DNA of 64,000 nt. Source: a candidate division WWE3 bacterium RIFCSPHIGHO2_01_FULL_40_23 (GTDB taxonomy: Bacteria; Patescibacteriota; WWE3; UBA101185; 2-01-FULL-41-18). Of the stretch, positions 23,976 through 64,000 are shown piece by piece. The stretch lies in the NCBI GenBank assembly GCA_001772615.1, contig MEUZ01000003.1, positions 350,433 through 414,432 on the forward strand. The letters are read 5' to 3'. A program made the translations under genes and the position numbers. Within the stretch, counting starts at the first letter, position 1, and each line of letters opens with the position of its first letter. The notes under the pieces were generated by a model. It had not been told where the DNA came from. It searched no databases and saw only the letters and a list, made by a program, of their open reading frames with translations.

Positions 23976-24052
23976 TGTCATTCCGGCGCCTGTCCACCTA
24001 TGGCGGGAAAGCCAGAATCTATTATGAGATCCTGGATCAAGTCCAGGATGAC
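23976..24052. repeat. Palindromic repeat family copy R7
   Basis: tgtcattccggc...gcgggaaagccagaatct...atcctggatcaagtccaggatgaca shares core and ends with the other copies. Confidence 0.6.
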
Positions 24053-24078
24053 AAACACCTTTATGCAGCAATAAAAGC

Positions 24079-26004
24079 CTACTCAACAACCTCACCTTCA
24101 ACCGGGCCTTGACTGTCTGAATCAGAAGGCCCTCCTCCCGAACCACTTCCTCCTGATGGACCGGAAGAACCCGGACCTTCGGGACCCGTAGATGTTCCCG
24201 CCCCGGTCTGTCCCTGGCCGTACATGTACTGACCAATCTTTTGAAGGCTCGCAGACAAATCTGAAGTCTTATTTTTAAGCTCCGTTGCGTCAGCCGTTGA
24301 TAAAACATCCCGTATCCCTTTCACCTTATCTTCAATTTCCTTTTTTAAGTCGGCAGGAACTTTGTCTCCTGCATCCCTTAAAGACTTCTCCGCCGTATAG
24401 CAAAGGTTATCAGCCGTATTTCTGGCTTCTGCCAGTTCTTTTCTCTTTCTATCTTCTTCGGCGTGCGCCCCTGCTTCCTTTACCATCCTGTCAACCTCTT
24501 CTTTTGACAAACCCGTCCCTCCCTGTATCGTAATATGCTGTTCCTTATTGGTAGCCTTATCTTTTGCCTTCACGTTTAAAATCCCATTAGCGTCTATATC
24601 AAACGCAACCTCAACCTGCGGAACTCCACGCGGTGCGGGTGGAATCCCGTCAAGAATAAATCTTCCAAGACTTTTATTATCCGAAGCCATCTCTCGCTCT
24701 CCCTGCAAAACATTAACCTCAACCGAAGTCTGATTATCGGCAGCCGTTGAAAACACCTGTGAAGCAGACGTAGGAATGGTTGTGTTTCGCTTTATTAGAG
24801 GCGTCATTACACCTCCGAGTGTCTCAAGCCCAAGAGTCAGAGGCGTAACATCAAGAAGAAGGATATCTTTAACTTCTCCACCTAAAACACCCCCCTGAAT
24901 GGCGGCGCCAACGGCCACAACTTCATCAGGATTAACTCCCATGTGGGGCTCCTTTCCAAAAAAGTTTCTGACCGTCTCAACAACTTTAGGCATTCTTGTC
25001 ATACCCCCGACAAGAACAACTTCATCTATATCCTTAACCGTAACTCCTGCATCAGAAAGTGCACGTTCAATAGGAGAAACGGTTCTTTGAATGAGCCCAT
25101 CCATAAGCTGTTCCAGCTTAGCCCTGGTAAGCTTAACCTGAAGGTGCTTGGGGCCTGAAGAATCGGCAGTAATAAAAGGTATATTAATTTCAGTTTCCAT
25201 TACGGATGAAAGTTCTATTTTTGCCTTCTCCGCCGCATCCTTTAATCTTTGCAATGCCTGCCTGTCTTTTGACAAATCAATTCCATTCTCTTTTTTAAAC
25301 TCGGAGGTTAAAAAGTTAATTAAAACGTTGTCAAAATCATCACCTCCAAGGTGCGTGTCTCCATTGGTCGACTTAACTTCAAAGACCCCGTCTCCTATTT
25401 CAAGAACCGAAACGTCAAAAGTCCCCCCGCCAAGGTCATAAACACATATCCTCTCGTTTTTCTTTTTATCAAGGCCGTAAGCAAGGGATGCGGCCGTCGG
25501 CTCATTAATAATTCTTTTCACATCAAGCCCTGCAATCTGCCCCGCTTCCTTGGTCGCATTTCTTTGAGAGTCGTCAAAATAAGCGGGGACTGTAATAACT
25601 GCTTCAGTTACCACTTGACCAAGAAACGCTTCCGCATCCGCCTTTAATTTAGATAAAATTTTTGCTGAAATTTCTTGAGGAGTATAAATTGTGCCTTCTA
25701 TCTCAACGCAGGCAAGTCCCCCTTTCCCCTCAACAATGTTATACGGAAGCGCTTTAATAAGATTTTGAACTTCGGGGTCTGAAAACCTTCTTCCCATAAG
25801 TCTTTTGATAGAAAAAATAGTGTTTTTTGGATTTACTATCTGCTGTCTTTTAGCGGGCACACCAACCAGATTTTTGGAAGGATCAACAATTGAGGGTGTT
25901 GTATTCATCCCTTCTCTGTTTGGCATAACTTTAGGGGAACCTGCTTCCATAACGGCCATGCATGAATTTGTTGTTCCAAGATCAATTCCTATAATTTTTC
26001 CCAT
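24079..26004 (-). CDS. dnaK: Chaperone DnaK (Hsp70)
   Basis: [18 protein letters not shown], 641 aa, Gly-rich C-terminus. Confidence 0.95.
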
Positions 26005-26078
26005 ATAAAATCCTCCTTTAAGTAAAAGATAACTTCATTATAGAGTTGATATTCATTCTCCCTCTTCAAGAACAAATA

Positions 26079-26534
26079 TCAGCTTCCAATGGCTTTCCCT
26101 ACCTTAACTCTGGCGGGGCGGATAACTTTATCACGTATTTTATAGCCTTTTAATACCACCTCTATAACTTTATTATCTTCGCCTTCAACAATTTCCGAAG
26201 CTTCCATTGACGAAGGGTCAAAATCTTTTCCTAAAGCTTCTATTTCTTCCGCACCCTCATCCTTTATAATATCCGAAAGCTGTTTTGTAATAAGAGCCAA
26301 CCCCTGATCTGAAAGATGCTCGCAGAGGTTTTCAAGATTATCAAGAACGGGTATAAGCCTTTCAAGAAGAATAAAATTTGAAAATGCGACCACCGCTTCT
26401 TTTTCTTCATTAAATCTTCTCTCAAGATTTTTATAATCAGCCAAGGCTCTTTTCCAGCTTTCTTCGAGCTCTTTTACCTTTAAATCTTTTTCATTTTGTT
26501 TTTGATCGTTCTGATCTGAAATATTATTATCCAT
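26079..26534 (-). CDS. grpE: Nucleotide exchange factor GrpE
   Basis: 151 aa with a coiled-coil and beta domain. Located between hrcA and dnaK. Confidence 0.8.
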   Translation of the reverse strand: MDNNISDQNDQKQNEKDLKVKELEESWKRALADYKNLERRFNEEKEAVVAFSNFILLERLIPVLDNLENLCEHLSDQGLALITKQLSDIIKDEGAEEIEALGKDFDPSSMEASEIVEGEDNKVIEVVLKGYKIRDKVIRPARVKVGKAIGS

Positions 26535-27259
26535 TACCAGCTTGCACCTAACTCCTCAAGTAAACTTTTTACATATCTTACCGAAGGAACAATAGTTCCA
26601 TATGGCATTCTCGCAGGCCCTAAAACGGCGACCACGCCCGAATGCCTGCCAGATGAATAAGGCGCAAATACAATACAGCATGGTTTAAGATTTGTTAACC
26701 CCGTTTCCTCTCCAATTATAGTTTTTACGTCCTTATCCGAATGAGCTCTTTCAAAAATCTGATGCAAAATCTCATGGTTATCAAGAAGATGCAACGCAGC
26801 TTTAGCAACATCAATTTCCCAAAACTCTTTTTCATCCAAAACATTTACGCTTCCCGCATAAAATACATGCCCATCATAAGTTGTGGTTATTGCAAGTTTT
26901 TTAGTAAATTCAGAAAGGGCTATAGCCGCCTGTCTTAAAAGTTTTTCAAATTCAAATCTTACAGGCCAGAGCTTTTGCTTCATGGCTACTTCCTGAAGGA
27001 TTGGAAGCTCGGATTCATCAAGGAGCTGATCAACGTAAAATCTAAACCCCATAGTAGTTGGAGTTCTGCCTGCTGAAGTATGCCTCATTTCAAGAAAACC
27101 CTTTTTAATAAGATCCACCATTTCATTTCTTACGGTTGCGGCTGAAACTTTAAGCTTATACTTTTCAACAAGCTTCTGCGACCCAACGGCATCGGACGAA
27201 TCTATATACTCCTGAATAATGGCTTTTAGAAGACCTACCTGCCTTTCCGAAAGATCCAT
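26534..27259 (-). CDS. hrcA: Heat-inducible transcription repressor HrcA
   Basis: The N-terminal wHTH MDLSERQVGLLKAIIQEYIDSSDAVGSQKLV is typical of HrcA. Heads the hrcA-grpE-dnaK operon. Confidence 0.8.
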   Translation of the reverse strand: MDLSERQVGLLKAIIQEYIDSSDAVGSQKLVEKYKLKVSAATVRNEMVDLIKKGFLEMRHTSAGRTPTTMGFRFYVDQLLDESELPILQEVAMKQKLWPVRFEFEKLLRQAAIALSEFTKKLAITTTYDGHVFYAGSVNVLDEKEFWEIDVAKAALHLLDNHEILHQIFERAHSDKDVKTIIGEETGLTNLKPCCIVFAPYSSGRHSGVVAVLGPARMPYGTIVPSVRYVKSLLEELGASW

Positions 27260-27426
27260 AAGTGTGTATGTTGCACGGCGCTTGAGCAGTAAACCCCCGG
27301 CAAAATAAAATTTAATAAATTAAGTTTTCACTTATCAGTATTATATTTAGAGTGCCAACTTGTCAAGAGCTAAGTTTGAGGATGTTGTTGATTTAAAGCT
27401 TATAGTAAACTATGATTGTTTGTAAC

Positions 27427-28116
27427 ATGAATTTTCACATCATCACGCTCTTTCCTGAAATGTTTGAGGGGGTATTTGAGCGCTCGCTTATAAAAAGAGC
27501 CAGAGAGAAAGGGATCATTAACATAAACCTTATCCAGCTAAGAGATTTTGCTATTGATAGGCATGGGACGGTTGACGACAAACCATACGGCGGCGGTGTT
27601 GGGATGCTCCTTATAGCAAAACCTATTTTTGATGCCGTCAGATCTGTTTATCCAAGTGCCGGTAACCCTTCCGAAAAATCAACAAATAAGAGAGTGATAC
27701 TTCTTTCACCAAGAGGAGAAAAGCTTTCACAGGAAAAGGTTAAAAAGCTTTCAAAGCTTTCAGAAATAATTTTAATTTGCGGAAGGTATGAAGGCGTTGA
27801 TGATAGGGTTCACAGCCTTTGCGATGAAGAGATTTCAATCGGGGACTATGTGCTATCCGGAGGTGAGATACCGGCAATGGTTTTAGTGGACTCTGTATCA
27901 AGACTTATTAAAGGCGTTTTAATAAAAGAGGAAGCTTTAAAAACTGAATCATTTACAAACGGCGTAATTGAATTTCCCCAGTATACAAGGCCAGAAAATT
28001 TTGAGGGTATGAAAGTCCCTGAAATTTTATTATCGGGAGATCATAAAAAAATTGAGGACTGGAAAAAAGAGCAGGCAAGAAAACTTACAAAAGATAAAAG
28101 ACCCGACCTTTTATAG
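27427..28116 (+). CDS. trmD: tRNA (guanine37-N1)-methyltransferase TrmD
   Basis: MNFHIITLFPEMFEG... is the SPOUT TrmD signature. Start taken at the second ATG. Confidence 0.85.
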   Translation: MNFHIITLFPEMFEGVFERSLIKRAREKGIININLIQLRDFAIDRHGTVDDKPYGGGVGMLLIAKPIFDAVRSVYPSAGNPSEKSTNKRVILLSPRGEKLSQEKVKKLSKLSEIILICGRYEGVDDRVHSLCDEEISIGDYVLSGGEIPAMVLVDSVSRLIKGVLIKEEALKTESFTNGVIEFPQYTRPENFEGMKVPEILLSGDHKKIEDWKKEQARKLTKDKRPDLL

Positions 28117-28215
28117 AGATTGCTTCGCTACGCTCGCAATGACTTTGTTAACATTCCCGTCATTGCGAGGACCCGCCTCTCAAGCGAGGCGAGAGGGCGG
28201 GGACGAAGCAATCTA
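28117..28215. repeat. Nested GC-rich palindromic element R1
   Basis: The outer inverted repeat is gattgcttcg...cgaagcaatc. Inner inverted repeats are ctcgcaatgac/gtcattgcgag and ccgcctctc/gagagggcgg. Confidence 0.6.
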
Positions 28216-28280
28216 GCCCATTTATCTGATTTGAAAAAATTTCCTGTTGTTGTAGACTAAAACTCCAAAGGAGACGACCA

Positions 28281-28640
28281 ATGAACGGCAAACCAAAGGC
28301 AGTTCTGTTTTTGGATTCGAACGAGTCTTACTTGCGTTTTTGGAAGTATGAGCTAAGAAGCGTATTACATGTCCTCACCGCCCAAACCACGAGGCAAGCT
28401 AAAGAGGTTTTCAACCAAAACAACGGCAAGTACAACATTATTGCCATTGTAATTGACGTGGGGGTGGACAAATTTCCAGAGTTCCTAGCGTTCATTAAAA
28501 AAAGTGCAGGGTACATAGGCGAAATAATCGCCACAGCTAGCACCTTCAATGAATATCAACGCTTTTTAAGGCTTGATTTCACCGTGGGTGTTATTAAGAC
28601 TGACGCAGCCGACAAGATCCGAGAGCTTGCACACAAGTAA
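28281..28640 (+). CDS. Hypothetical protein, possibly receiver-domain-like (higher GC)
   Basis: 119 aa. The VLFLDSNESY...IIAIVIDVG pattern resembles a CheY-like fold. Weak call. Confidence 0.35.
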   Translation: MNGKPKAVLFLDSNESYLRFWKYELRSVLHVLTAQTTRQAKEVFNQNNGKYNIIAIVIDVGVDKFPEFLAFIKKSAGYIGEIIATASTFNEYQRFLRLDFTVGVIKTDAADKIRELAHK

Positions 28641-28649
28641 CTCTCTATC

Positions 28650-28682
28650 ACCCGTTTGCCACCAAAAGCAAGCGGGTTTTTT
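28650..28682 (+). terminator. Intrinsic terminator
   Basis: Stem acccgtttgc/gcaagcgggt, then TTTTTT. Confidence 0.6.
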
Positions 28683-28721
28683 AATTTGACACTAAAATAC
28701 ATAGTAGTATCATTAACCGCA

Positions 28722-30934: not shown

Positions 30935-30978
30935 AATCTTTCCGAAAGACTTGTTTTTTCATCCACCTTTAAAACCGT

Positions 30979-31007
30979 TTGACATTTAAACTATGCGTTG
31001 ATATATA
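30979..31007 (+). promoter_or_regulatory. Sigma70-type promoter (TTGACA, 17-nt spacer, TATATA)
   Basis: ttgaca 30979-30984, a 17-nt spacer, tatata 31002-31007. Confidence 0.6.
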
Positions 31008-31014
31008 TAAATCA

Positions 31015-31223
31015 CACGGCACCTCCTTGCCGGAGTCAATGTCGATTGGGTGGTTGCTCCCAAAGTAACCACCCAAACTAATAACCCACAGATCCGACTT
31101 CAAAAAGAAGGATCTGTTTACAGTGCGGCCCACCAGGTTTTGCTGTCCGCGAGAGGCCCGCAAAACCTGACACCGAAGAGGGGACCTATGAGTGCTTTCG
31201 CATCCAGGGTCCCCTATTTTGTA
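31015..31223 (+). ncRNA. Candidate small non-coding RNA (about 210 nt), family unassigned
   Basis: Bounded by a consensus promoter and an intrinsic terminator (ggggacc...ggtcccc plus TATTTTGT at 31178-31223). Contains internal hairpins gggtggtt/aaccaccc, agatcc/ggatct and ggttttgc/gcaaaacc. No convincing ORF. It lies in a convergent intergenic region. Confidence 0.45.
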
Positions 31224-31224
31224 C

Positions 31225-31290
31225 GTCATTCCTGCGAAAGCAGGAATCTGGAGATCCCAGGTCATCCGCCAGCTGGCGGACGGGATGACA
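31225..31290. repeat. Palindromic repeat family copy R2
   Basis: gtcattcctgcgaaagcaggaatctggagatcccaggtcatccgccagctggcggacgggatgaca. Confidence 0.65.
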
Positions 31291-31300
31291 TAAAGTCAGT

Positions 31301-44475: not shown

Positions 44476-44590
44476 TGTCATTCTGGCGAAAGCCAGAATC
44501 TAAAATGGTCATCGCGAGTCCACCAGCCGGCGGACGTGGCGATCTCTAGAGATTGCTATTCGAACTTCGTTCGAACGCTCGCAAAGACAA
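44476..44590. repeat. Palindromic repeat family copy R3 (compound)
   Basis: tgtcattctggcgaaagccagaatct...gattgctattcgaacttcgttcgaacgctcgcaaag. The second half resembles R1. Confidence 0.6.
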
Positions 44591-46333: not shown

Positions 46334-48259
46334 ATGGAACTTTTTCAAAACCTAAACAAAGAACAGACCGAAGCGGCAATGCACCTTGAAGGGCCAGCTC
46401 TGGTAGTTGCCGGTCCAGGGTCAGGAAAAACAAGGGTGTTAACTCACAGGGTTGCCTATCTTATCAACGAACAAAAGATCCATGAGTCAAACATTTTAGT
46501 TGTAACTTTCACAAACAAAGCCGCGAATGAGATAAAAGAGAGGCTTAAAAACTTACTGCAGGAGGATGTTAAGCTCCCCTGGGCCGGAACATTTCATTCA
46601 ATCTGCTCAAAAATTTTAAGAAGAGACGGTTATCTTATCGGCATCAGCCCTTCATTTGCCATTTATGACGAAGATGACCAAAGAGCTCTAATAAAAGGTG
46701 TTCTTAAAGATTTAAATTTACCTCCAACAAAAATTAATCCTTATGCAGTACTCTCAAAAATTTCAGGTGCGAAAAACGAGTTGATTGATGAACACGAATA
46801 TCCCAAATACGCTTTTGGGTACTTCGCGGAAGTGGTTGCAAGGGTGTATCCGATATATCAAAAACGTTTGCGTGAGAACAATGCTTTGGATTTTGATGAT
46901 TTGATAATGGAGACAGTGAGGCTTTTCGAAAACGGGCAGGTTCTTGAAAAATACCAAAACCAACTCCAATTTATCCTCATTGACGAATACCAAGACACAA
47001 ACAAAGCCCAGTACATTTTATCAAAGCTCCTTGCCCAAAAACACGGAAACATTTTCGTTGTCGGGGACATGTCTCAAGCAATTTATTCATTCAGAGGCGC
47101 AGATTTTAGAAACATCCTTAACTTTGAAAAAGATTATAAAGACGCAAAGATTTATAACCTTGAAGAAAACTACAGATCAACTAAAACAATCATTGAAGCC
47201 GCAAGAAACTTAATCACAAAAAATTCAACCCATGTGCCTTTAAATCTCTGGACCAAAAACAAAGAGGGGCAAAAGGTAAAAGTGTATGAAGCTTTTGACC
47301 ACATAGACGAAGCTTTATTTATCGCACAGGAAATAAAAAACGAAATAATAAAAGGGGGGCTTTCATTTGCTGACATTGCAGTACTTTACCGCACAAACGC
47401 GCAGTCAAGAAACATTGAAGAAATGCTTTTAAAAGAGGGCATCCCTTATAAACTCGTTGGTGGCGTGAGATTTTATTCAAGAAAGGAAATTAAAGATTTA
47501 ATTTCTTATTTAAGAGTTATTCATAACCCTTCGGATTCAATTTCCTGGGAAAGAATTATTAACACACCACCAAGAGGACTTGGCAAAAAAGCTGTGGAAA
47601 AGCTCAAGGAAGAAAAATGGGACATAGATAAGATTTCACAAGTTACAAAACTGCCTTTTAAAGAATGGGTTTCACAAATAGAAACTCACACCACTCCTGA
47701 GCTTCTTGAGGATGTTATTTCTAAAACAAGATATATTGAATGGCTAAATGACGGAACCGAGGAAAACCTATACCGAATAGAAAACATAAAAGAGCTTAAA
47801 TCAGTTGCCTCGCTTTTTTCAAATCTGTCCGACTTTCTGGAAAATGTGTCTCTTATTGAAAGTACCGACAAACCGCGCTCTGAAGAAAAAGATGCGGTAA
47901 CTCTTATGACTGTGCACGCGGCAAAAGGCCTTGAATTTCCGGTAGTCTTTATTATGGGGATGGAGGAAGGGCTTTTTCCACATTCAAGAAGCTATCTTGA
48001 CTTAAACGAACTTGAAGAAGAAAGGCGCCTTTGTTACGTAGCAATAACACGGGCAAAAGAGAAGCTTTTTTTAACGCATGCAAAATCGCGTTTGTATTTT
48101 GGAAGCACGCAGTCAAATATAATTTCAAGGTTTATCATTGAAATCCCGCAGGAACTTTTAGAATCAAATCATGTACTTAATAAACACGGCTCATCTAATT
48201 TTGAAATTGAGGAGTTTTTAGATAAACTTCAGAGTGAGAGAGAACTTGAAATAAGATAA
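46334..48259 (+). CDS. pcrA: ATP-dependent DNA helicase PcrA/UvrD
   Basis: GPGSGKTRVLTHRVAYLI and the UvrD motifs. 641 aa. Confidence 0.85.
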   Translation: MELFQNLNKEQTEAAMHLEGPALVVAGPGSGKTRVLTHRVAYLINEQKIHESNILVVTFTNKAANEIKERLKNLLQEDVKLPWAGTFHSICSKILRRDGYLIGISPSFAIYDEDDQRALIKGVLKDLNLPPTKINPYAVLSKISGAKNELIDEHEYPKYAFGYFAEVVARVYPIYQKRLRENNALDFDDLIMETVRLFENGQVLEKYQNQLQFILIDEYQDTNKAQYILSKLLAQKHGNIFVVGDMSQAIYSFRGADFRNILNFEKDYKDAKIYNLEENYRSTKTIIEAARNLITKNSTHVPLNLWTKNKEGQKVKVYEAFDHIDEALFIAQEIKNEIIKGGLSFADIAVLYRTNAQSRNIEEMLLKEGIPYKLVGGVRFYSRKEIKDLISYLRVIHNPSDSISWERIINTPPRGLGKKAVEKLKEEKWDIDKISQVTKLPFKEWVSQIETHTTPELLEDVISKTRYIEWLNDGTEENLYRIENIKELKSVASLFSNLSDFLENVSLIESTDKPRSEEKDAVTLMTVHAAKGLEFPVVFIMGMEEGLFPHSRSYLDLNELEEERRLCYVAITRAKEKLFLTHAKSRLYFGSTQSNIISRFIIEIPQELLESNHVLNKHGSSNFEIEEFLDKLQSERELEIR

Positions 48260-49270: not shown

Positions 49271-50035
49271 ATGAAAGCAAAGAAAGAACTGGGGCAAAAT
49301 TTTTTAATTGACGAGCACATTGTAAACATTCTGATCCAGGAAGGAGAGGTAAATAACACAGATAAAGTTCTTGATATCGGATCCGGAAAAGGGTTTGTAA
49401 CCAAGGCTCTTTCTGAAAAAGCCGGGAATGTGCTGGGTGTTGAACTGGATAAAGATTTAATCCCTGTACTTACTTCAAACTTATCACAGTTTAAAAATGT
49501 TGAGATTGAAAACGGCGATATTCTGACTTTTTTAGAGGATAAATCTAATCACAAAAGGTTCAACAAGATAGTTTCTTCCATCCCATTTCAGATAACCTCT
49601 CCCCTTTTGCACAAAATCATAAATATCAGAAGCACAATAGATATTTGCGTCCTACTCATTCAAAAAGAGGTTGCCGAAAGGGTAACTGCAAAACCGCCAA
49701 AAGCAAATTACTTATCCATATTTCTTCAGACCTTTTTTAAGGTGGAGCTAATCACTGTTGTTAGTAAAGAATCATTTTATCCAAAATCTGAAGTTGACGG
49801 CGCAATTATAAAACTCACACCGCTAAAAAAATCTCTTGTAAAAGACGACGTCAAATATTCAAAATTCCTCCACCACGGGTTCACACAGCAAAGAAAGATG
49901 CTATATAAAAGGTTTAAAAAGGAAGTTTTAGAGAAGGCTGGTATAGATACAACAAGGAGAGCCGAAACTTTAAGCGTTGAAGAGTGGGTAAAGATATTCA
50001 AGAATTCATCCCTGATCTGGCCCATGTCATCCTGA
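49271..50035 (+). CDS. rsmA: 16S rRNA (adenine1518/1519-N6)-dimethyltransferase RsmA/KsgA
   Basis: KELGQNFLIDEHIV...LDIGSGKGFVT. Confidence 0.85.
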   Translation: MKAKKELGQNFLIDEHIVNILIQEGEVNNTDKVLDIGSGKGFVTKALSEKAGNVLGVELDKDLIPVLTSNLSQFKNVEIENGDILTFLEDKSNHKRFNKIVSSIPFQITSPLLHKIINIRSTIDICVLLIQKEVAERVTAKPPKANYLSIFLQTFFKVELITVVSKESFYPKSEVDGAIIKLTPLKKSLVKDDVKYSKFLHHGFTQQRKMLYKRFKKEVLEKAGIDTTRRAETLSVEEWVKIFKNSSLIWPMSS

Positions 50036-50039
50036 ATTT

Positions 50040-50085
50040 AATTCAGGATCTACAGTGAGATACCTGCTTTCGCAGGAATGGCAGA
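50040..50085. repeat. Palindromic repeat family copy R4 (reverse orientation)
   Basis: cctgctttcgcaggaatggcag is the reverse complement of the cattcctgcgaaagcagg core. Confidence 0.6.
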
Positions 50086-52982: not shown

Positions 52983-53102
52983 TGTCATCCTGAACTGACT
53001 TTATGTCATGCCGGACCTGATCCGGCATCTATAATCCTAGATTCCCGCTTTCGCGGGAATGACACTTGATTCGTGTTGGAGCTTAGACCCTGCTTTCGCA
53101 GG
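52983..53102. repeat. Palindromic repeat family copy R5 (compound, TIR-bounded)
   Basis: tgtcatcc...catgccggacctgatccggcat...ctagattcccgctttcgcgggaatgaca, then cctgctttcgcagg. Confidence 0.65.
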
Positions 53103-53143
53103 AACAGACCTAACAAACCACCAACAAAAAAGGCCAGCTGTAA

Positions 53144-53440
53144 TTACTCAACTGGCCCAAGGTTTCTACCGCAACCGGGACAAATCCAATTCCCATGCTT
53201 ATTTACAGGAAGGGAAAAGCAATCCAGTCCAGAGCACATCGGCCGCAACTTCCTCCTAACTTCAGCCGGGGCAAGCCTTATCCCTGCTGCAGGTGTTTCC
53301 ACAGCGAAAACCCTTTTCGCAGCTTTAGTTGGCACACGCATTCTGCTTTGGTGATGTTCACCCCGATCACAGTCAGTACAAAATTCGCCATTATCTGCGA
53401 CCTTGTTTCTGCAACCGCACGAACAAGCGCAAGTTGCCAT
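53144..53440 (-). CDS. Cys-rich small protein (zinc-ribbon-like), hypothetical, higher GC
   Basis: MATCACSCGCRNKV...CTDCDRGEHH...CPGCGRN. A strong RBS gaaggaaggagaaagatc precedes the ATG. Confidence 0.5.
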   Translation of the reverse strand: MATCACSCGCRNKVADNGEFCTDCDRGEHHQSRMRVPTKAAKRVFAVETPAAGIRLAPAEVRRKLRPMCSGLDCFSLPVNKHGNWICPGCGRNLGPVE

Positions 53441-54475: not shown

Positions 54476-54481
54476 GCGAAA

Positions 54482-55662: not shown

Positions 55663-55684
55663 GTACTGATCTTTAACCCCCATT

Positions 55685-55717
55685 ACCGCGGGACAAGAGC
55701 ACCCCGCGGTTTTTTCT
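55685..55717 (+). terminator. Intrinsic terminator
   Basis: accgcggg..ccccgcggt, then TTTTTT. Confidence 0.65.
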
Positions 55718-55811
55718 CGCCACTAAAAGGACCCTGTTATACAAACTTGCTCAAGTTTGCCACATTAACTCATTTGTTGCCGGGACAGATTTAGGTTACT
55801 ATCTGGTTGTA

Positions 55812-57608: not shown

Positions 57609-57632
57609 ATCCATTGGTTAAACTTAGTTCTT

Positions 57633-58004: not shown

Positions 58005-58076
58005 CATATCTAGAAATGCTTTTGAATTAATAGTGCGATATAATCCATTTTAGAACTTTGAGAGCATAAAAAAGGA

Positions 58077-58427
58077 GTGGAGATGAAGACTTTGTTTCAG
58101 GCTATTGTAGTAGCCGCCATGCCACTGTTTTTCCTGATCATCGGAATTTTAACCGGCGTACTGACGAAACTTGAGCTAGAGATTATTCTTTACGCGGCTC
58201 TGGTAATTTTGCTGGTTGTGCTTTCCGGATACGGGTTCTTCACCCTGCTGGGAGCCTCGTGGGATAAAAGCAAAAACGGGGTAGTCTGCCTTTTTGCCAG
58301 CCTGTTCATTTCGGTGGCAGCAGTACACGTCCCAAACGGTACTGTGCTTCCGTTCATCACATACATGCTTTTCCTAACGGGTGTGGGGCTTGGGCACTTC
58401 GTCCCATTTCCGAAAGCAAAGAAGTAA
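58077..58427 (+). CDS. Small polytopic membrane protein, hypothetical (higher GC)
   Basis: 116 aa with 4 TM helices. A terminator follows. Confidence 0.45.
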   Translation: MEMKTLFQAIVVAAMPLFFLIIGILTGVLTKLELEIILYAALVILLVVLSGYGFFTLLGASWDKSKNGVVCLFASLFISVAAVHVPNGTVLPFITYMLFLTGVGLGHFVPFPKAKK

Positions 58428-58430
58428 ACT

Positions 58431-58462
58431 TACCCCCGTAACAAATTTGCGGGGGCTTTTTA
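58431..58462 (+). terminator. Intrinsic terminator
   Basis: cccccg..cggggg, then CTTTTT. Confidence 0.6.
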
Positions 58463-61400
58463 TACCTCAAGTTCAAGCTGACTGTCCTCACCACCGCCTT
58501 TTGGAATACCGTTTGGCCAGCAATGAGCCCTGTAATCACAATTCACGCAGGTTTTGTAATTTGTAGTTCTTTCAAACTTTAGCTCTCTGATTTTTTTCAT
58601 CACATCTTTGATAGTAAGCTTAAGCTCCTCCAGCTCCCCCAAGGATATATTAAAAGAGTGCCTAGAAAACTTTCCATTTTTATCAGGCTCCACAAAATCG
58701 AGCTCTGCGTCAGTCACCGTAAAGTTAAATGTCCGGTCTAAATCGGCAAGAAGTTTATAAAAAACAAGCTGTCTTTTATATCCGCCGTTTGAGTACTTAG
58801 TCTTGCCCTCAACGTCATTCCTTGACTTTGCCTTCCCCGTTTTATAATCAATAACCTTCACATACTTTCGCGAGACGTCAACATAATCAATCTTGTCAAC
58901 TTTCCCATTAAGAGGAATGTTATCAAGATAAACTTTGGAGTTCCCATACCCAAAAAACTTTTCGGTAAAAAGAGGCTTTTGAAACTCTTTGTTATAAGAA
59001 CCAAAATAAGCTTTCAGGATTAAACTTCCTTTTGCCCTCGTTTCCAAAAAATCTCTTTCCGTTAAAATCTCCTCGCTAATTGCTTTTTCAAACTCTGATA
59101 AAAGATACGGCAGGTCGGGAAGCTTTCCCGTATTTTTAAACTCCCTGAAAAATATCTCCAAAGCCTTGTGAACGGCGGTTCCAAGCGCAAGATACTTATC
59201 CTTGGCCCTCGGGGTCCTAAGTAGATTATTAAGTTTAAATTTATAAGGGCATTCAAGATATGTATTTAACGCCGTAACCGAAAGGCTGAAATTTTTAAGA
59301 ACGCTTTTTAAGAAATCTTTTTCTTCTATTGAAACATTTTCAGAAGTAACCGGCTTTAAAATGTCTTTTAAAATTTCTTTGACGGAAGATTCATACTTTG
59401 AAACTTCGATCTCCTCCGTTTTGTCTTTTGAAATCTCGGAAATAAACATTGATGGAACTGCTTCTCTTAAAGACCCTTCGGTAAAATATGAATCCGCGTA
59501 TGTAACAAAAAGCCCTTTTTTTGCTCTCGTCATTGCAACGTAAAAAAGTCTTCTTTCATCCTCATTCTTTTCTTTTGACGCATCCAACGTCCCGGCTTTG
59601 TCTTTAACGCCAAGAGAAGCCCCGACAAGGCCTTCCGGAAGTTTTATTAAATCCCTGACTTTATTATTACCCCACTTTCCGTCAAAGCATTTAACTAAAA
59701 AGACATACTCAAACTCAAGGCCCTTTGACCTGTGAGCCGTCGTTAACAAAACAGAGTTATTTCTGATATTTAAAGCCTCCTCATTTATGGGAATTCCGCT
59801 TTCCTTAAGAATTAAAACATCCTCCATAAATTTCTTAAGGTTAAGAGAATGATCGGCTGTATTTAGCTTTTTAATTTCGGCAAACAAAGAATTTAATCTG
59901 TTTAATTTTTCTATGGAATCTCGGGAAGAAATCACCCAGTTTAAAAATCCCGATTCCTCTAAAACTCTTTCAAAAAAAGCGGTGAAAGTAAGATTAGAGT
60001 CTAGACTTTGCCACTCATAAAGCTTATCCAGAAACTTTTCAAAATTTAGGGCATTTAAAACCCCTGAAGATTTCTTAAAATCGGGATGATTTATTGCTTC
60101 AACAAAATTTATTTTCTTCTCACTAGCAAAGCGGGAAAGCTTAAGGGTGTCAACATAATCAAAGTCCAAAAACTCGTAATTAAAAATGGTGAAAAGATCA
60201 AGGTCCTCCTCTTTGCTTCTGACTTTTAAAATCACGTCAAGAAGCTTTAGGAGTTTATTAATGTCATAATCCTCTAAAACATTTTCCCCGCCTATAAGAT
60301 TAAACGGAATTCCCATCCTCCCAAACATGTCCGAGAAGTCTTTTGAATCCGCATTGTTCCTATAAATTACCGCAATTTCAGAAGGCAAGACCCCATCTTC
60401 CACAAGTTTTTTGATTTGTGTAGAAACAAAAAAGCTCTCCGTAATTCCAGAAGAAAAATGCCCGAGCTCTATCCTCTTATCTTCATATGTAACCGCACTT
60501 TCCTGCCTTTTTTCAACGTTTAGAAAATCCGTTAATTTAAGCTCATTATTTTTTATTAAATCCTCCGACGCGCCAATAATAACTTTCTGGCTTCTGTAAT
60601 TTTCCTTAAGGGTAATTATTTTTGCCTTCGGATAATTTTTTGTGAAAAAGAGTATGTTATCTAGTGAAGCTCCCTGAAATCTGTATATGGACTGTGAGTC
60701 ATCGCCCACCACAAACACATTTGCTTCGTCACCCCAGTAGCTTGCAAGAAGATGGGCAACTTTGTTCTGCGGAGAGTTTGTGTCCTGATATTCATCAACA
60801 AGAAAATACAAATATCTTTCCTGATAATCCCTAAGAAGATTTGCGTCGTTATCAAATCTTTCGGTAACAAGATTAATCATGTCTTCAAAGTCATACCGGT
60901 TTTTCTCTTTCAATTTTTGTAAATATCTTGAGTAAACATCCAAAACCTCCGAGAGTTTTTCAAAGTTTTCGCTTTTTTCTATAAACTTCTCAAAATCTTT
61001 TTCCGAGATACCCTCCCTTTTCAAATCCTGTATTGTTCTAATCAAAGATCTTACATAGTAGTACCTGCCTCCAAACGGTCTAATATTTTTATAACCTCCC
61101 TCGTCAAGAATTTCCCTGAATATCTGAACCCTTTCAAGATCAGATAAAGGCTCAAGATCTTCCGAAAGGACAAACCTGTCGGGGTTACTTCTTAAAATGT
61201 CTGAACAGAAGGAATGAAAGGTATAAATGTTCACGTAATAAGCTTCCGAACCTATTATTGATAAAAGCCTTTCCCTCATGGCTTTAACACCGGAGTCGGT
61301 AAAGGTGAGAGCCAAAATTGCAGATGAGGGTGTATCGGTCTTTTTGAGAATGTTTGCAATTCTCATAGTGAGAACCTGCGTCTTTCCCGTTCCGGGTCCC

Positions 61401-61519
61401 GCGATAACTAAAACGGGGCCTTCTATAGTGTCAACCGCTTCTTTCTGCTTTGGGTTTAGCTCTTTGTATAAAGATTCAAATGTTTCTGTATGGGCCTTCT
61501 TGGACATACTCATCAGCAT
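58460..61519 (-). CDS. UvrD/PcrA-like SF1 helicase fused to a C-terminal PD-(D/E)XK (RecB/Cas4-like, Cys-cluster) nuclease; AddA/AdnB-like
   Basis: The N-terminal VLVIAGPGTGKTQVL and the UvrD motifs. The C-terminal VIDYKTGK...FVEPDKNGK...CVNCDYRAHC. About 1015 aa. The start may be the internal MSKKAH. Confidence 0.75.
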   Translation of the reverse strand: MLMSMSKKAHTETFESLYKELNPKQKEAVDTIEGPVLVIAGPGTGKTQVLTMRIANILKKTDTPSSAILALTFTDSGVKAMRERLLSIIGSEAYYVNIYTFHSFCSDILRSNPDRFVLSEDLEPLSDLERVQIFREILDEGGYKNIRPFGGRYYYVRSLIRTIQDLKREGISEKDFEKFIEKSENFEKLSEVLDVYSRYLQKLKEKNRYDFEDMINLVTERFDNDANLLRDYQERYLYFLVDEYQDTNSPQNKVAHLLASYWGDEANVFVVGDDSQSIYRFQGASLDNILFFTKNYPKAKIITLKENYRSQKVIIGASEDLIKNNELKLTDFLNVEKRQESAVTYEDKRIELGHFSSGITESFFVSTQIKKLVEDGVLPSEIAVIYRNNADSKDFSDMFGRMGIPFNLIGGENVLEDYDINKLLKLLDVILKVRSKEEDLDLFTIFNYEFLDFDYVDTLKLSRFASEKKINFVEAINHPDFKKSSGVLNALNFEKFLDKLYEWQSLDSNLTFTAFFERVLEESGFLNWVISSRDSIEKLNRLNSLFAEIKKLNTADHSLNLKKFMEDVLILKESGIPINEEALNIRNNSVLLTTAHRSKGLEFEYVFLVKCFDGKWGNNKVRDLIKLPEGLVGASLGVKDKAGTLDASKEKNEDERRLFYVAMTRAKKGLFVTYADSYFTEGSLREAVPSMFISEISKDKTEEIEVSKYESSVKEILKDILKPVTSENVSIEEKDFLKSVLKNFSLSVTALNTYLECPYKFKLNNLLRTPRAKDKYLALGTAVHKALEIFFREFKNTGKLPDLPYLLSEFEKAISEEILTERDFLETRAKGSLILKAYFGSYNKEFQKPLFTEKFFGYGNSKVYLDNIPLNGKVDKIDYVDVSRKYVKVIDYKTGKAKSRNDVEGKTKYSNGGYKRQLVFYKLLADLDRTFNFTVTDAELDFVEPDKNGKFSRHSFNISLGELEELKLTIKDVMKKIRELKFERTTNYKTCVNCDYRAHCWPNGIPKGGGEDSQLELEV

Positions 61520-61567
61520 GAATTATAACGGATTGACACACAGAAAAGCTTAAACTAAAGTTGTCCC

Positions 61568-62002
61568 ATGGATGAGGAAAGAAAGCTGGTTTTTGAACTT
61601 TTAAAAGCGGCGGGCATTCCCGATAACGAAATTGAAAGCTATTACTCCAAGATGATTACATTGTCTCTTACCTACCTTGTAGCCTTCACACTTTCGGCCC
61701 TTAACGAGGATGAAAAAGAAAAGCTGACAAAAGAGCTTAAAGATTCTTCAAAACAGGCGGATATAATTATTCAAAAACTAAAAGAAGCTTGTGAGTCTTC
61801 GCAGAACAAGCCTGACATAAGGGACATAGCCGCCCTTGCAAAAATAAAAGCCTCTTCAGAATTTTTCGGGTCGGTTTACGACAAAGCAGACGAGGGGCAT
61901 AAGACAAAACTTATTGAAGTTTACAGAGGTATAATTACCTCAAACCCCACACATAAAGAAAATATTGAGAATGTGATTAATGCGTTCGGGAAGGAGGACT
62001 AG
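61568..62002 (+). CDS. Hypothetical protein
   Basis: 144 aa, helical. Confidence 0.4.
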   Translation: MDEERKLVFELLKAAGIPDNEIESYYSKMITLSLTYLVAFTLSALNEDEKEKLTKELKDSSKQADIIIQKLKEACESSQNKPDIRDIAALAKIKASSEFFGSVYDKADEGHKTKLIEVYRGIITSNPTHKENIENVINAFGKED

Positions 62003-62003
62003 T

Positions 62004-62555
62004 ATGAGAGAAGGACCACCTTTGGAAATGCCCCATGAGGAAGTTTCTACCGCCGGTTCTGAAGCTGCAAAACCGGACGAGGGGTTTACGATTAGAATAC
62101 TAGGGATTGATGTCCCTGAACCTGTAGCTACAAAAGCCGCGGTTGTATTAGTTGCAACCGCAACAGCTTTTGCACAGGCTAAGGAAGCTCTTGGATCTAA
62201 TTTTGAGGTACCCACTACACCCGAGGAAGGAGCGAAAGAGGCAATGAAGCTATTAATCGGGGTAGGAGGCGGCGCAGTCCTACTCGGAGCCGGGCTTGCA
62301 GTGGGAATGCGAATTAAAAGGGCTTGGGAGGAGGGCGATACTCACCAACAGCCTTCGGAAGAACCACGGCCTAGAGGCCAAGGATATAAAGACTCCCGCG
62401 AGGAGGCACTAGATCGGGGTATTGGGCAGGCTCAAGCCTCGGCTCCATTTGTTTCCAGAATGAGGGGTGCTTCACCAGTCGAAAGGTTAGAAGCTCTAAG
62501 AGACTTAGAAAACCCTACCAGGGGATCAAGAAAATCTCTATCAGAACTAACATAA
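62004..62555 (+). CDS. Membrane-anchored hypothetical protein (higher GC)
   Basis: ATG 1 nt after the upstream stop. A TM helix LLIGVGGGAVLLGAGLAVGM. Low-complexity charged regions. Confidence 0.4.
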   Translation: MREGPPLEMPHEEVSTAGSEAAKPDEGFTIRILGIDVPEPVATKAAVVLVATATAFAQAKEALGSNFEVPTTPEEGAKEAMKLLIGVGGGAVLLGAGLAVGMRIKRAWEEGDTHQQPSEEPRPRGQGYKDSREEALDRGIGQAQASAPFVSRMRGASPVERLEALRDLENPTRGSRKSLSELT

Positions 62556-62571
62556 CAAAGGGTAATCTAAA

Positions 62572-64000
62572 CTACGGAGTCCCTTTTTTATACACATTCA
62601 AAATCTTCACACCATCAGCCCAAACAGAATGTACCTCCTCAAAACTCTCGGGAACTACTACTTCACCCCTAAAATTAGTCACATAATAATCCGGCTCTTT
62701 GGTTTTCTGGCTTACATCAAGCCTTTTTCTGTCCGGCTCCGGAAGGATCAGGGTGTTATTTTTCCCCGGGTAATTCGCCACTTTAACTTTTATCTTATCC
62801 CTGTCATCGGTTCTCACTATATATTCAAGACCCTTTCTGTAGGAAAGCCCCCAATAATCAAGATCAAACCTTTGCCCGATTGTGCTTTTTTCACCCGCAA
62901 AAACATTAAAGTACATATTCTCAAAAGGGTGATTTCTGTACATAAAACCTAAAGCTAAAAGCGCGTTAACCAACACCGCAAGAATAAGAGCTCGTTTTAA
63001 GAAAAAGCCAGAAGCATTAACCGCGAAAGTCAGAATATACACAAAAGCCGGGTATATAAAAAAGAGCTGGCGCCATTCATCATATAAAACAGACTTTAAA
63101 AGTATTACTGAAAGAAGAGGAACAAAAAACCAAAGCAAGATAAGCATGTCTTCTTTTCTTAAAGAACTTCGTTTATAGACAAAATAAAAAAGCCCTAGAC
63201 AGAAAACAAAAATATAAGCTGGTGGGATGGTAACAAGCATCCATCCGGGAGCATAATAAAAAGGCAAATTTACGCTTTCTATCTTCTTTCCGTAAAAAAG
63301 CATTTCAGTTGGCTGCGGGTAATATTTAAAAGCTTTAATAAAGTTTCCGACAGGGTTTTCCCAAAGAGTGGGCCAGAATAAAACGGTAAAAATAGCTGTA
63401 ACCAAGACATAGACAACCAACGGTTTTAATTCCTGCTTTAGCAAGGATAAACTTAAGCCTGAATCTATAATTGTCATCCCGGGCTTGACCCGGGATCTAG
63501 ATTCCCGCTTTCGCAGGAATGACAGTGTATACGGTAATAAAACCCCGCTTGAGATAAAGAGGGCAACAAAAAAGGGGATTAAAACGCCAAGAATCCTTGT
63601 GTCAATTAAAACAGCAGAAGTAAAAGCCAGAATAAACGCGCTAAAGTAACTTCTCTTATCCAAAAACTGTAGTACAAAATAAACGTTTATTATAAAAAAC
63701 GACAAAAAAACCATATCTTTTGAGTTATAAAAAGAGTGGGCAAAAAGCCTTGGAGTTAAAACCAAAACCGCGCTTCCAAGAAGTGAAAGCCACGTGCCAA
63801 ACCTTTTTCTTAATAACAAAAAGAAGAACAAAACACCGGCATATTGCGTCATAAAAGTTAGAAAGTGCCTTGAAAAATAAATTTCCCGTGAGTCGCTTAA
63901 ATTAAATATTTTTTGAGCACCTACCAGAAAAACTTCAAAAACGGGGCCGTAAAATTTATCTATTTTATCAAGAGGTTTCTTGTCTCTTAGAAAAACATGA
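62572..64000 (-). CDS. GT-C fold (PMT/ArnT-like) membrane glycosyltransferase, 5'-partial; contains an in-frame repeat insertion
   Basis: The reading frame is open through 64000 upstream of the listed Met. It is multi-TM. An 18-aa insert LSFLRKRESRSRVKPGMT is encoded by repeat R6. Confidence 0.6.
   Translation of the reverse strand, partial: HVFLRDKKPLDKIDKFYGPVFEVFLVGAQKIFNLSDSREIYFSRHFLTFMTQYAGVLFFFLLLRKRFGTWLSLLGSAVLVLTPRLFAHSFYNSKDMVFLSFFIINVYFVLQFLDKRSYFSAFILAFTSAVLIDTRILGVLIPFFVALFISSGVLLPYTLSFLRKRESRSRVKPGMTIIDSGLSLSLLKQELKPLVVYVLVTAIFTVLFWPTLWENPVGNFIKAFKYYPQPTEMLFYGKKIESVNLPFYYAPGWMLVTIPPAYIFVFCLGLFYFVYKRSSLRKEDMLILLWFFVPLLSVILLKSVLYDEWRQLFFIYPAFVYILTFAVNASGFFLKRALILAVLVNALLALGFMYRNHPFENMYFNVFAGEKSTIGQRFDLDYWGLSYRKGLEYIVRTDDRDKIKVKVANYPGKNNTLILPEPDRKRLDVSQKTKEPDYYVTNFRGEVVVPESFEEVHSVWADGVKILNVYKKGTP
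63472..63525. repeat. Palindromic repeat family copy R6, 54 nt, inserted in-frame in a CDS
   Basis: tgtcatcccgggcttgacccgggatctagattcccgctttcgcaggaatgacag; near-identical to the right half of R5. Confidence 0.7.

What the first reader, a model, noticed from the sequence alone, without database searches (positions are those of the whole stretch)
23976..63525. Family of GC-rich nested-palindrome repeats with MITE-like terminal inverted repeats, at least 7 copies
Seven loci share a core hairpin CATTCC(T/C)GC-GAAA-GC(A/G)GGAATC or its reverse complement CCTGC-TTTC-GCAGG. They also share flanking hairpins. They are 28117-28215, 31225-31290, 44476-44590, 50040-50085, 52983-53102, 63472-63525 and 23976-24052. 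Copies R5 and R6 are bounded by TGTCAT(T)CC ... GGAATGACA inverted termini and share a near-identical 29-nt block, (t)ctagattcccgctttcg(c/a)gggaatgaca. Most copies sit in convergent intergenic gaps, and three abut the higher-GC small ORFs. The GAAA/TTTC tetraloop stems would be very stable in RNA. The pattern is compatible with a non-autonomous mobile element (MITE/REP-like) that may double as a transcript-end stabiliser or terminator.
Basis: seen in the sequence. Interest (0 to 1): 0.7.

Follow-up and report, generated by a model that had tools for sequence, protein, structure and literature searches.

The report
Ssn-nuclease target hairpin repeats in WWE3
The repeats are real and belong to a recently described class of DNA hairpins (NTS/SRM) that small GIY-YIG "Ssn" nucleases recognise on single-stranded DNA; here they occur as gene-less paired copies scattered through a candidate-phyla-radiation (WWE3) genome, one of them inserted in frame inside a gene.

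Summary
About 18 hairpin units sit in 7 clusters between 23977 and 63523. Each unit is GTC + AT-stem(8 bp)-loop-stem-AT + C(T). The flanks are invariant and the stems covary.

They match the Neisseria NTS and the wider "Ssn-related motif" (SRM) of Chenal et al. 2025. Three units lie within 2 mismatches of the 28-nt NTS consensus (0 expected by chance).

Five clusters share one composite doublet: type II unit(+), a 0-10 nt spacer, then an inverted type I unit. The same doublet occurs in 25 genome loci, about 10 of them CPR, and in 105 metagenome loci.

In other CPR genomes the same two units flank a 95-104 aa GIY-YIG (ssn-like) gene. The window doublets therefore look like ssn-less miniatures of that cassette.

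Four related WWE3-lineage genomes have no units at the syntenic sites. One cluster is a 96-nt in-frame insertion in a GT39 glycosyltransferase gene.

I found no ssn gene and no transposase in the window or within 10 kb of it. The rest of the genome could not be reached.

The units lack U-tails, so a terminator role is not supported.

Verdict: a new member of a known kind, in a new lineage. Moderate interest.

The parts
23977..24019 (+). u1: type I-like unit (GTCATTCCGGCG...GCCAGAATC) with about 19 nt inserted in the loop. It is one half of doublet A.
24028..24052 (-). u2: type II unit GTCATCCTGGACTTGATCCAGGATC. It is the other half of doublet A.
   Evidence: (38.9 bits)
28118..28143 (-). u3: type III unit GTCATTGCGAGCGTAGCGAAGCAATC. 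It starts 2 nt after the trmD stop codon.
   Evidence: weak hit, 12.2 bits
28159..28213 (+). u4: type III unit with a nested GC-rich hairpin in its loop. It lies head-to-head with u3.
31225..31248 (+). u5: type I unit, 2 mismatches from the 28-nt Neisseria NTS consensus. It is one half of doublet C.
31253..31289 (-). u6: type II-like unit with a nested hairpin in the loop. It is the other half of doublet C and ends 11 nt from the lepA stop codon.
   Evidence: 17.9 bits
44477..44500 (+). u7: type I variant GTCATTCTGGCGAAAGCCAGAATC.
   Evidence: 42.4 bits
44508..44544 (+). u8: long unit GTCATCGCGAG...GGCGATC with a nested hairpin.
44551..44588 (-). u9: degenerate type III unit (head GTCTT) with a nested hairpin. 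It lies tail-to-tail with u8.
50026..50050 (+). u10: type II unit. The ksgA/rsmA stop codon (50033-50035) lies inside it. It is one half of doublet E.
50059..50082 (-). u11: degenerate type I unit (head GCCAT). It is the other half of doublet E.
   Evidence: 19.3 bits
52984..53004 (+). u12: truncated unit GTCATCCTGAACTGAC... . The same AACTGAC module precedes doublet C, and a close variant (CATCCTGAACTGAC) precedes a doublet in L146.
53005..53029 (+). u13: type II unit. It is one half of doublet F.
53040..53063 (-). u14: type I unit. With its flanks it matches the Neisseria NTS consensus at 27 of 28 positions. It is an exact dRS3 (ATTCCC-N8-GGGAAT) and an exact match to the SRM pattern.
53085..53109 (-). 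u15: degenerate type I unit (GTCTGTTCCTGCGAAAGCAGGGTCT).
63429..63452 (-). u16: degenerate type I unit, translated in frame as part of the GT39 protein.
63473..63497 (+). u17: type II unit and an exact SRM match. It is one half of doublet G and lies inside the GT39 coding sequence.
63500..63523 (-). u18: type I unit, 2 mismatches from the NTS consensus. It is the other half of doublet G and is read as ...SFLRKRES... in the GT39 protein.

Best explanation
The repeats are NTS/SRM-type DNA hairpins, the class of motif that Ssn (single-domain GIY-YIG) nucleases bind and cut on single-stranded DNA.

**Unit and doublet.**
- Each unit is a 24-25 nt orientation-specific site. It has an unpaired GTC, an 8-bp hairpin that begins with AT and ends with AT, and an unpaired C (usually followed by T).
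- In this WWE3 genome the units occur mostly as tail-to-tail doublets: type II(+), a short spacer, then inverted type I. Each DNA strand therefore carries one correctly oriented site.
- In other CPR genomes the same two units directly flank a 95-104 aa GIY-YIG gene.

**Inference.**
- The window doublets are miniature, ssn-less derivatives of that cassette, or possibly its landing sites.
- They were gained by insertion in this lineage. They decay, nest and cluster into mosaics.
- I infer that an Ssn encoded elsewhere in the genome, or one formerly present, acts on them whenever the DNA is single-stranded (replication, repair, DNA uptake).

**What is shown and what is inferred.**
- Shown: the motif identity, the covariation, the doublet architecture, the ssn association in other CPR genomes, the empty sites in relatives and the in-frame insertion.
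- Inferred: cleavage by an Ssn in this organism, the way the units spread, and any role in controlling recombination or uptake of DNA.
For: **Motif identity.**
- Three units lie within 2 mismatches of the 28-nt NTS consensus CGTCATTCCCGCGMAVGCGGGAATCYRG, with 0 expected by chance.
- Two units match the published SRM pattern exactly, against 0.17 expected.
- The invariant positions among 39 units are the GTC 5' of the hairpin and the C 3' of it. These are the same positions that PMC11893778 found critical for cleavage and for binding.
- Four or five stem positions covary.
- The units fold as 8-bp ssDNA hairpins with z-scores of -3.2 to -5.2.

**Doublet.**
- Five of the seven clusters align as one composite.
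- The same composite occurs in 25 genome loci and 105 metagenome loci.

**Partner gene in other genomes.**
- In the Shapirobacteria locus L126 a doublet flanks each side of a 99-aa GIY-YIG gene, inserted between atpG and atpA.
- Three CPR ssn genes chosen by protein homology alone each have a unit(+) just 5' of the ATG and a unit(-) at the stop codon.

**Insertion.**
- There are no units in the syntenic DNA of four relatives.
- A 96-nt in-frame insert in the GT39 gene is absent from 11 homologs.
Against: - No GIY-YIG gene lies in the window or in the 18 kb of flanking sequence that could be fetched (and the gene tables). The remaining roughly 350 kb of the contig and the other contigs of GCA_001772695.1 could not be searched.
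- Only 2 of about 18 units fit the published SRM pattern exactly. Type III units (ATTGCGAG stems) and units with nested loops may not be Ssn substrates. In Neisseria, changing the stem sequence while keeping the structure abolished activity.
- The ssn-like identity of the CPR proteins rests on Pfam GIY-YIG, their size, and the flanking units. Membership of cd10448 and similarity to N. meningitidis SsnA itself were not tested.
- Among the 130 doublet loci only 7 carry an ssn-like gene, and 4 of those are one and the same element.
Confidence: 0.72

Rival explanations
1. REP/REPIN elements mobilised by a REP-associated tyrosine transposase (RAYT, IS200/IS605 Y1 family). The doublets would be REPINs.
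For: The units are short hairpins with an orientation-giving head. They occur as inverted doublets and in mosaic clusters, as REPINs and BIMEs do.
Against: - The head is GTCAT, not the GT[AG]G that, from my own knowledge of the REP/RAYT literature, is typical of RAYT-associated REPs.
- No Y1_Tnp or other transposase appears in the gene tables that cover the window and 10 kb on each side.
- In other genomes the gene flanked by these units is a GIY-YIG gene.
Confidence: 0.05
2. Classical MITEs derived from a DDE transposon, with terminal inverted repeats TGTCAT...ATGACA.
For: The doublets have sharp ends with inverted 5-9 nt termini, are small, and lack a coding sequence.
Against: - The 29 doublets aligned with their flanks show no target-site duplication.
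- The 'TIRs' are the heads of two different hairpin units.
- Spacer length varies from 0 to 10 nt, and the units also occur singly, in tandem and head-to-head.
- No DDE transposase is nearby.
Confidence: 0.04
3. Functional RNA hairpins: intrinsic terminators or 3'-end stabilisers selected in place at gene ends.
For: - Four clusters lie in convergent gaps directly after stop codons.
- The GNRA-like GAAA loops would make stable RNA stems.
Against: - No unit has a T-run, and none is called by the terminator scan. Separate canonical terminators lie at 23925-23949(+) and 53158-53131(-).
- The units occur in both orientations at each site.
- One cluster is inside a coding sequence.
- The sites are empty in four relatives.
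- No Rfam family matches.
Confidence: 0.08
4. Orphan relics. The units were deposited by an ssn element that has since been lost, and they now have no partner and no activity in this genome.
For: - No ssn gene lies in 82 kb.
- Many units are degenerate, truncated or interrupted: u1, u6, u9, u11, u12, u15 and u16.
- In PMC11893778, 19% of genomes with more than 200 SRMs lack an ssnA homolog.
Against: Eight units are still perfect 8-bp hairpins with intact GTC and C flanks, scoring 35-42 bits. That argues for recent gain or ongoing constraint. The rest of the genome was not searched.
Confidence: 0.25

Closest known systems
NTS (Neisseria Transformation Sequence) and Ssn-related motifs (SRM), targets of SsnA/Ssn GIY-YIG single-strand DNases (Chenal et al., Nat Commun 2025, PMC11893778)
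   Same: - The sequence frame is the same: (C/T)GTCAT-stem-loop-stem-ATC-YRG.
- u14 matches the NTS consensus at 27 of 28 positions.
- The unpaired GTC and the 3' C are invariant.
- The units are orientation-specific hairpins found in multiple clustered copies.
- In other CPR genomes the units flank a gene of about 95 aa encoding a single-domain GIY-YIG protein.
   Different: - The host is a CPR (WWE3) genome. This group is not mentioned in the paper, which used RefSeq reference genomes.
- The partner gene was not found in the 82 kb examined.
- Most units deviate from the published SRM pattern by one or more positions.
- The dominant form is a fixed two-type doublet (type II plus inverted type I). 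Long units with nested hairpins and a third stem type also occur.
Neisseria dRS3 repeats and neisserial intergenic mosaic elements (NIMEs)
   Same: The ATTCCC-N8-GGGAAT core is present exactly in u14 and with one mismatch in u18. Different repeat modules form mosaic clusters in intergenic gaps.
   Different: There are no RS elements between the repeats, and the phylum is different. No link to a phage integrase was examined here.
REP / BIME / REPIN with RAYT transposases
   Same: Both are short hairpins with a conserved 5' head, found as inverted doublets and mosaic clusters, with a small gene flanked by the repeats.
   Different: The head sequence differs. The partner enzyme is a GIY-YIG nuclease, not a Y1 HUH transposase.
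Rickettsia palindromic elements (RPEs)
   Same: Palindromic repeat DNA is inserted in frame into a protein-coding gene and read through as extra peptide (cluster G; the RPE behaviour is summarised in PMC10969869).
   Different: RPEs are about 100-150 bp units of their own families. Sequence relatedness was not tested. Rickettsia is, however, listed among the SRM-rich genera in PMC11893778.

Membership tests
NTS/SRM (Ssn-related motif) | Hairpin of about 8 bp with a 4-5 nt loop, formed by a semi-palindrome | tested here: met
   (ssDNA folds, -7.2 to -9.3 kcal/mol, z -3.2 to -5.2). Covariation at 4-5 stem pairs. The units were pre-selected for pairing.
NTS/SRM (Ssn-related motif) | A conserved non-palindromic GTC directly 5' of the hairpin and a C directly 3' of it, which give the unit its orientation | tested here: met
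   G5, T6, C7 and C29 are invariant in 39 distinct units from the window and 25 genome loci. The same positions are critical in the mutagenesis of PMC11893778.
NTS/SRM (Ssn-related motif) | Match to the published consensus (28-nt NTS; degenerate SRM pattern) | tested here: met
   NTS: three units have 1, 2 and 2 mismatches, with 0 expected by chance. SRM pattern: 2 exact matches against 0.17 expected, and 2 more with one substitution. The other units fit the frame but not every degenerate position.
NTS/SRM (Ssn-related motif) | An ssn (GIY-YIG, cd10448) gene in the same genome, typically flanked by the motif | tested here: inconclusive
   None in the window or within 10 kb of it (gene tables). 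The rest of GCA_001772695.1 could not be reached. The feature is met in other CPR genomes: L126, L262, L264/265 and L266/267. The cd10448 assignment itself was not testable here.
NTS/SRM (Ssn-related motif) | Binding and cleavage by Ssn on single-stranded DNA only, a few nucleotides 5' of the motif | not testable with these tools
   This needs a biochemical assay.
REP/REPIN-RAYT | A conserved GT[AG]G head 5' of the palindrome, and a RAYT (Y1 transposase) gene flanked by the repeats | tested here: not met
   The head is GTCAT. No Y1_Tnp appears in the gene tables covering the window and 10 kb on each side. The head rule comes from my own knowledge of the REP/RAYT literature.
Classical MITE | Terminal inverted repeats plus a target-site duplication, with copies of uniform length | tested here: not met
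   The flanks of 29 doublets show no duplication. The spacer varies from 0 to 10 nt, and the clusters are mosaic.
Intrinsic terminator | A GC-rich hairpin followed by a T/U run | tested here: not met
   No unit appears in the terminator scans. The units are followed by CTAG, CTAT and similar sequences.
dRS3 (Neisseria) | ATTCCC-N8-GGGAAT | tested here: met
   u14 matches exactly and u18 has 1 mismatch. The other units do not match.
Rfam RNA families | A match to a curated covariance model | tested here: not met
   There are no hits at the gathering threshold. No unit region has a hit at E<=0.5.

The most novel reading that the evidence does not exclude
The roughly 350-bp unit 'type II hairpin - ssn - inverted type I hairpin' is an autonomous, minimal mobile element driven by a GIY-YIG single-strand nuclease. 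The ssn-less doublets in this window are its MITE-like derivatives.

The element would spread across phyla, including the reduced genomes of the CPR. It would insert at gene ends, inside operons (atpG/atpA, thyA/folA) and even in frame inside genes.

This would be a transposition or homing mode distinct from the DDE, HUH/Y1, serine and tyrosine systems.
Probability: 0.3. Interest if true: 0.75.

Novelty: new member of a known kind. Interest (0 to 1): 0.45.

Why it matters
Ssn nucleases and their hairpin motifs were described only in 2025, and their biology outside Neisseria is open. This window adds three things.

1. **New host group.** The motif, nearly identical in sequence to the Neisseria NTS, occurs in a WWE3 genome and in many other CPR phyla. 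These organisms have very small genomes and are thought to depend on imported DNA and nucleotides.
2. **A fixed two-hairpin doublet.** Its two units are the same types that flank ssn genes. This gives a concrete autonomous versus miniature pair on which the mobility of the system can be tested.
3. **Tolerated insertions.** The doublets can insert in frame into a conserved membrane glycosyltransferase and can supply stop codons to housekeeping genes.

There is also a practical point for annotation. These units generate spurious small ORFs and extra peptide segments such as SFLRKRES and VKPGMT.

Tried and rejected
- **Rfam**, at the gathering threshold and at E<=0.5: nothing at the repeats.
- **tRNA scan:** none found.
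- **Generic inverted-repeat finder:** dominated by AT-rich palindromes and not useful.
- **GIY-YIG in the window:** a six-frame motif scan and tblastn with 42 Ssn queries found none. The small ORFs next to the clusters have no Pfam or NCBIfam hit even at E<=1.
- **Reaching the rest of the source genome:**
  - The doublet pattern scans of genome contigs and metagenome contigs returned other organisms but not this MAG.
  - Contig look-ups can extend only 10 kb beyond the window.
- **Paper supplements** (taxon lists) are not held. A 2026 preprint that mentions SsnA could not be opened.
- **PDB sequence search** with the CPR Ssn: no relative found.
- **Literature search** for the peptide strings encoded by the units: nothing found.
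- **Target-site duplications:** none seen.

Full report
**1. What is in the sequence**

Read in one orientation, the repeats break down into about 18 units in 7 clusters. The clusters are:
- A, 23977-24052
- B, 28118-28213
- C, 31225-31289
- D, 44477-44588
- E, 50026-50082
- F, 52984-53109
- G, 63429-63523

Each unit has the frame (T)GTC | AT-stem ... stem-AT | C(T). The stem is 8 bp and the loop 4-5 nt in the canonical 24-25 nt units. Some longer units carry a second hairpin nested in the loop (u1, u4, u6, u8, u9).

Three stem types recur:
- Type I: ATTCCYGC-GAAA-GCRGGAAT
- Type II: ATNCYGGR-CTTGA-type loop
- Type III: ATTGCGAG...GCAAT

The family is far above chance. The pattern GTCATNC...GNATC gives 14 matches against 1.45 expected, and none of 100 shuffles reaches 14.

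I built a covariance model (R1) from 39 distinct units taken from the window and from other genomes. It finds 8 strong and 3 weaker hits in the window. All lie inside the seven clusters. There are none in the other roughly 60 kb, and none in a further 18 kb of the same contig on either side.

The stems covary while the flanks do not. Among the window units, 4 of 7 pairs show changes on both sides. Among the 39 units, 5 of 8 pairs do, while GTC, the closing A-T and T-A pairs, one C-G pair and the 3' C are invariant. The 100% pairing reported is partly circular, because I selected those units for pairing. The informative result is which columns vary and which never do.

As single-stranded DNA each unit folds into the 8-bp hairpin, leaving the GTC and the C unpaired.

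**2. Where the window comes from**

- The GT39-like protein and LepA are 100% identical to proteins of 'candidate division WWE3 bacterium RIFCSPHIGHO2_01_FULL_40_23'.
- The window corresponds to about 350.4-414.4 kb of contig MEVI01000003.1 of GCA_001772695.1.
- This is a candidate-phyla-radiation (Patescibacteria) genome.
- Copies of the region from other samples are identical across the repeats, so they give no information on polymorphism.

**3. What the units are**

A full-text search for the core sequence led to Chenal et al. 2025 (PMC11893778).

That paper defines the Neisseria Transformation Sequence, CGTCATTCCCGCGMAVGCGGGAATCYRG, which contains the older dRS3 repeat. It also defines a degenerate 'Ssn-related motif' (SRM) found across phyla. 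It shows that SsnA, a 94-aa single-domain GIY-YIG protein, binds the motif only as single-stranded DNA. SsnA cuts a few nucleotides upstream of the motif, and only on one strand.

Mutagenesis in that paper found that the three bases 5' of the palindrome matter most for cleavage. The C just 3' of the palindrome mattered most for binding. Those are the positions that are invariant here.

Direct comparisons with the window:
- Three units lie within 1, 2 and 2 mismatches of the 28-nt NTS consensus, with 0 expected by chance.
- u14 is an exact dRS3.
- Two units match the published SRM pattern exactly, against 0.17 expected, and two more match with one substitution.
- The remaining units fit the frame but miss one or more degenerate positions of a pattern that was built from 29 genomes.

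**4. A composite doublet**

Five of the seven clusters (A, C, E, F, G) align as one composite. It consists of a type II unit, a spacer of 0-10 nt, and an inverted type I unit. The outer ends therefore read TGTCAT...ATGACA.

The two halves differ in stem sequence, so each folds on its own. Each DNA strand carries one unit in the GTCAT orientation.

I searched public collections with a pattern for this doublet:
- Viral contigs: 0 matches.
- One-genome-per-species collection: 25 stretches. About 10 of these are from CPR lineages (Doudna-, Magasanik-, Shapiro-, Collier-, Roizman-, Berkel- and Wolfebacteria, and 'Patescibacteria group'). The rest come from Ignavibacteriales, Rickettsiales, Omnitrophota, Chitinophagales, Gammaproteobacteria and a Lacinutrix isolate, among others.
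- Metagenome contigs: 105 stretches.

The ends of the doublet are sharp. The flanking sequence is unrelated between copies, and there is no target-site duplication.

**5. The partner gene**

*In this genome.* The window has no GIY-YIG gene and no transposase. This rests on a six-frame motif scan, tblastn with 42 Ssn queries, and precomputed Pfam tables that cover the whole window plus 10 kb on each side. The small unannotated ORFs beside the clusters have no family hit.

*In other genomes.*
- In a Shapirobacteria contig (L126), a 99-aa GIY-YIG gene (Pfam E = 5e-12) has one copy of the doublet on each side. The whole element sits between atpG and atpA.
- Searching with that protein found more than 4,800 homologs. 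Those named by NCBI include Doudnabacteria and 'Patescibacteria group'.
- I then took three CPR homologs chosen only by protein similarity and name. Each gene has a unit in the + orientation ending a few bases before its ATG, and a unit in the - orientation at or just after its stop codon. In two Doudnabacteria loci these are type II upstream and type I downstream. In one case the cassette lies between thyA and folA.

So the window doublet has the same two ends as the ssn cassette, with the ORF missing.

*Strength of the association.* Among the 130 doublet loci, 7 carry an ssn-like gene, and 4 of those are the same Shapirobacteria element. The association is clear when seen from the gene side and only modest when seen from the doublet side. 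This is as expected if ssn-less copies outnumber full ones.

**6. Evidence for insertion**

*Relatives.* The nearest relatives available have LepA at 73-75% identity (L148, L151) and about 65% identity (L268, L269). They keep the gene order gapdh...murJ-lepA and hrcA-grpE-dnaK. None contains a single unit in 12-22 kb of syntenic DNA each.

In L148:
- lepA and the DUF5671 gene overlap. The window has a 366-nt gap there, which holds cluster C.
- dnaJ follows dnaK after 176 nt. The window has 1.46 kb there, which holds cluster A.

*Cluster G.* It lies inside a conserved GT39/ArnT-like gene. The three units (96 nt) are read through in frame as LSFLRKRESRSRVKPGMTIIDSGLSLSLLKQEL. Eleven homologs lack about 25-29 residues exactly there, and conservation resumes on both sides.

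*Stop codons.* The ksgA/rsmA stop codon lies inside u10. The trmD stop codon abuts u3.

**7. Function**

*Terminator idea.* It is not supported.
- No unit is followed by a T-run, and none is picked up by the terminator scan.
- Proper terminators lie beside clusters A and F.
- The units occur in both orientations.
- One cluster is in a coding sequence.
- Neisseria SsnA does not bind the RNA form of the motif.

*Most likely reading.* These are Ssn target hairpins, spread as ssn-less doublets derived from the type II-ssn-type I cassette. They would be acted on by an Ssn when the DNA is single-stranded. In Neisseria this lowers the integration of transforming DNA that carries the motif.

Whether a similar role exists in a CPR cell is inference only. 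How the doublets move is unknown. The original authors noted that the cassette looks like an insertion sequence but did not show mobility.

**8. Limits**

- I could not search the rest of the source genome for ssn.
- I could not test cd10448 membership, or similarity to N. meningitidis SsnA itself.
- Type III units and units with nested loops may not be Ssn substrates.

**9. Verdict**

The interpretation as a non-autonomous REP/MITE-like family is right in spirit, but wrong about the partner enzyme and about termination.

The thing itself is a known kind (NTS/SRM with Ssn, 2025) found in a new lineage. The new details are the conserved doublet, its relation to the cassette, and the in-frame insertion.

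Noticed in passing
window 63429-63523, inside the gene ending at 62572 (- strand; full gene 522 aa, P0001): Three hairpin units (96 nt) are inserted in frame in a conserved GT39/PMT_2-like membrane glycosyltransferase gene. They are read through as a 32-residue segment. About 25-29 residues at that spot are absent from 11 homologs. This resembles RPE behaviour in Rickettsia.
   Followed up: yes
window 50033-50035 and 28114-28116: The stop codon of ksgA/rsmA lies inside unit u10. The trmD stop codon directly abuts unit u3. The insertions seem to have reshaped the gene 3' ends.
   Followed up: partly
window 22619-24078: Between dnaJ and dnaK there are 1.46 kb with three small ORFs of no known family (72 aa on the - strand; 142 and 100 aa on the + strand) with somewhat higher GC, plus cluster A. 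In the relative L148, dnaJ follows dnaK after only 176 nt. The stretch may be an inserted islet bounded by the hairpin doublet.
   Followed up: partly
window 30990-31222: A unique 233-nt stretch beside cluster C consists of four strong independent hairpins (RNA fold z = -7.7 on the + strand). In L148 the two flanking genes overlap, so the stretch is absent there. Its nature is unexplained.
   Followed up: partly
window 53144-53440 (-): A cysteine-rich 98-aa ORF (several CxxC pairs) has its own strong terminator at 53158-53131. It has no family hit. NCBI annotates it in L153.
   Followed up: no
window 47993-48083 (+) and 59493-59584 (-): There are sub-threshold Rfam hits to RF03531, a 'C. difficile sRNA included into helicase gene'. 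Both lie inside the two UvrD-type helicase genes, so they probably reflect conserved coding sequence rather than an RNA.
   Followed up: no
L126 2605-3085; L264 2965-3319: The ssn cassettes sit inside housekeeping gene clusters: between atpG and atpA in a Shapirobacteria genome, and between thyA and folA in Doudnabacteria.
   Followed up: partly
L123 and L139 (one Ignavibacteriales contig, CAVSWT010000023.1): The arrays are very dense: 25 and 15 hairpin units in 8 kb each. They include a further unit type (GTCATTCTGATGAnnATCAGAATC) and a degraded ssn gene at L139 4638-4817.
   Followed up: no
L266 3121-3215: Directly after the ssn stop codon there is a tandem repeat of about 22 nt (gggatgacgagggggaggtgct, three to four copies), followed by the next hairpin unit.
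   Followed up: no
Two of those loci (L010, L036) have a GIY-YIG gene flanked on both sides by the unit, and a third (L103) carries a GIY-YIG gene whose flanks were not examined. The composite doublet is absent from that collection.
   Followed up: partly
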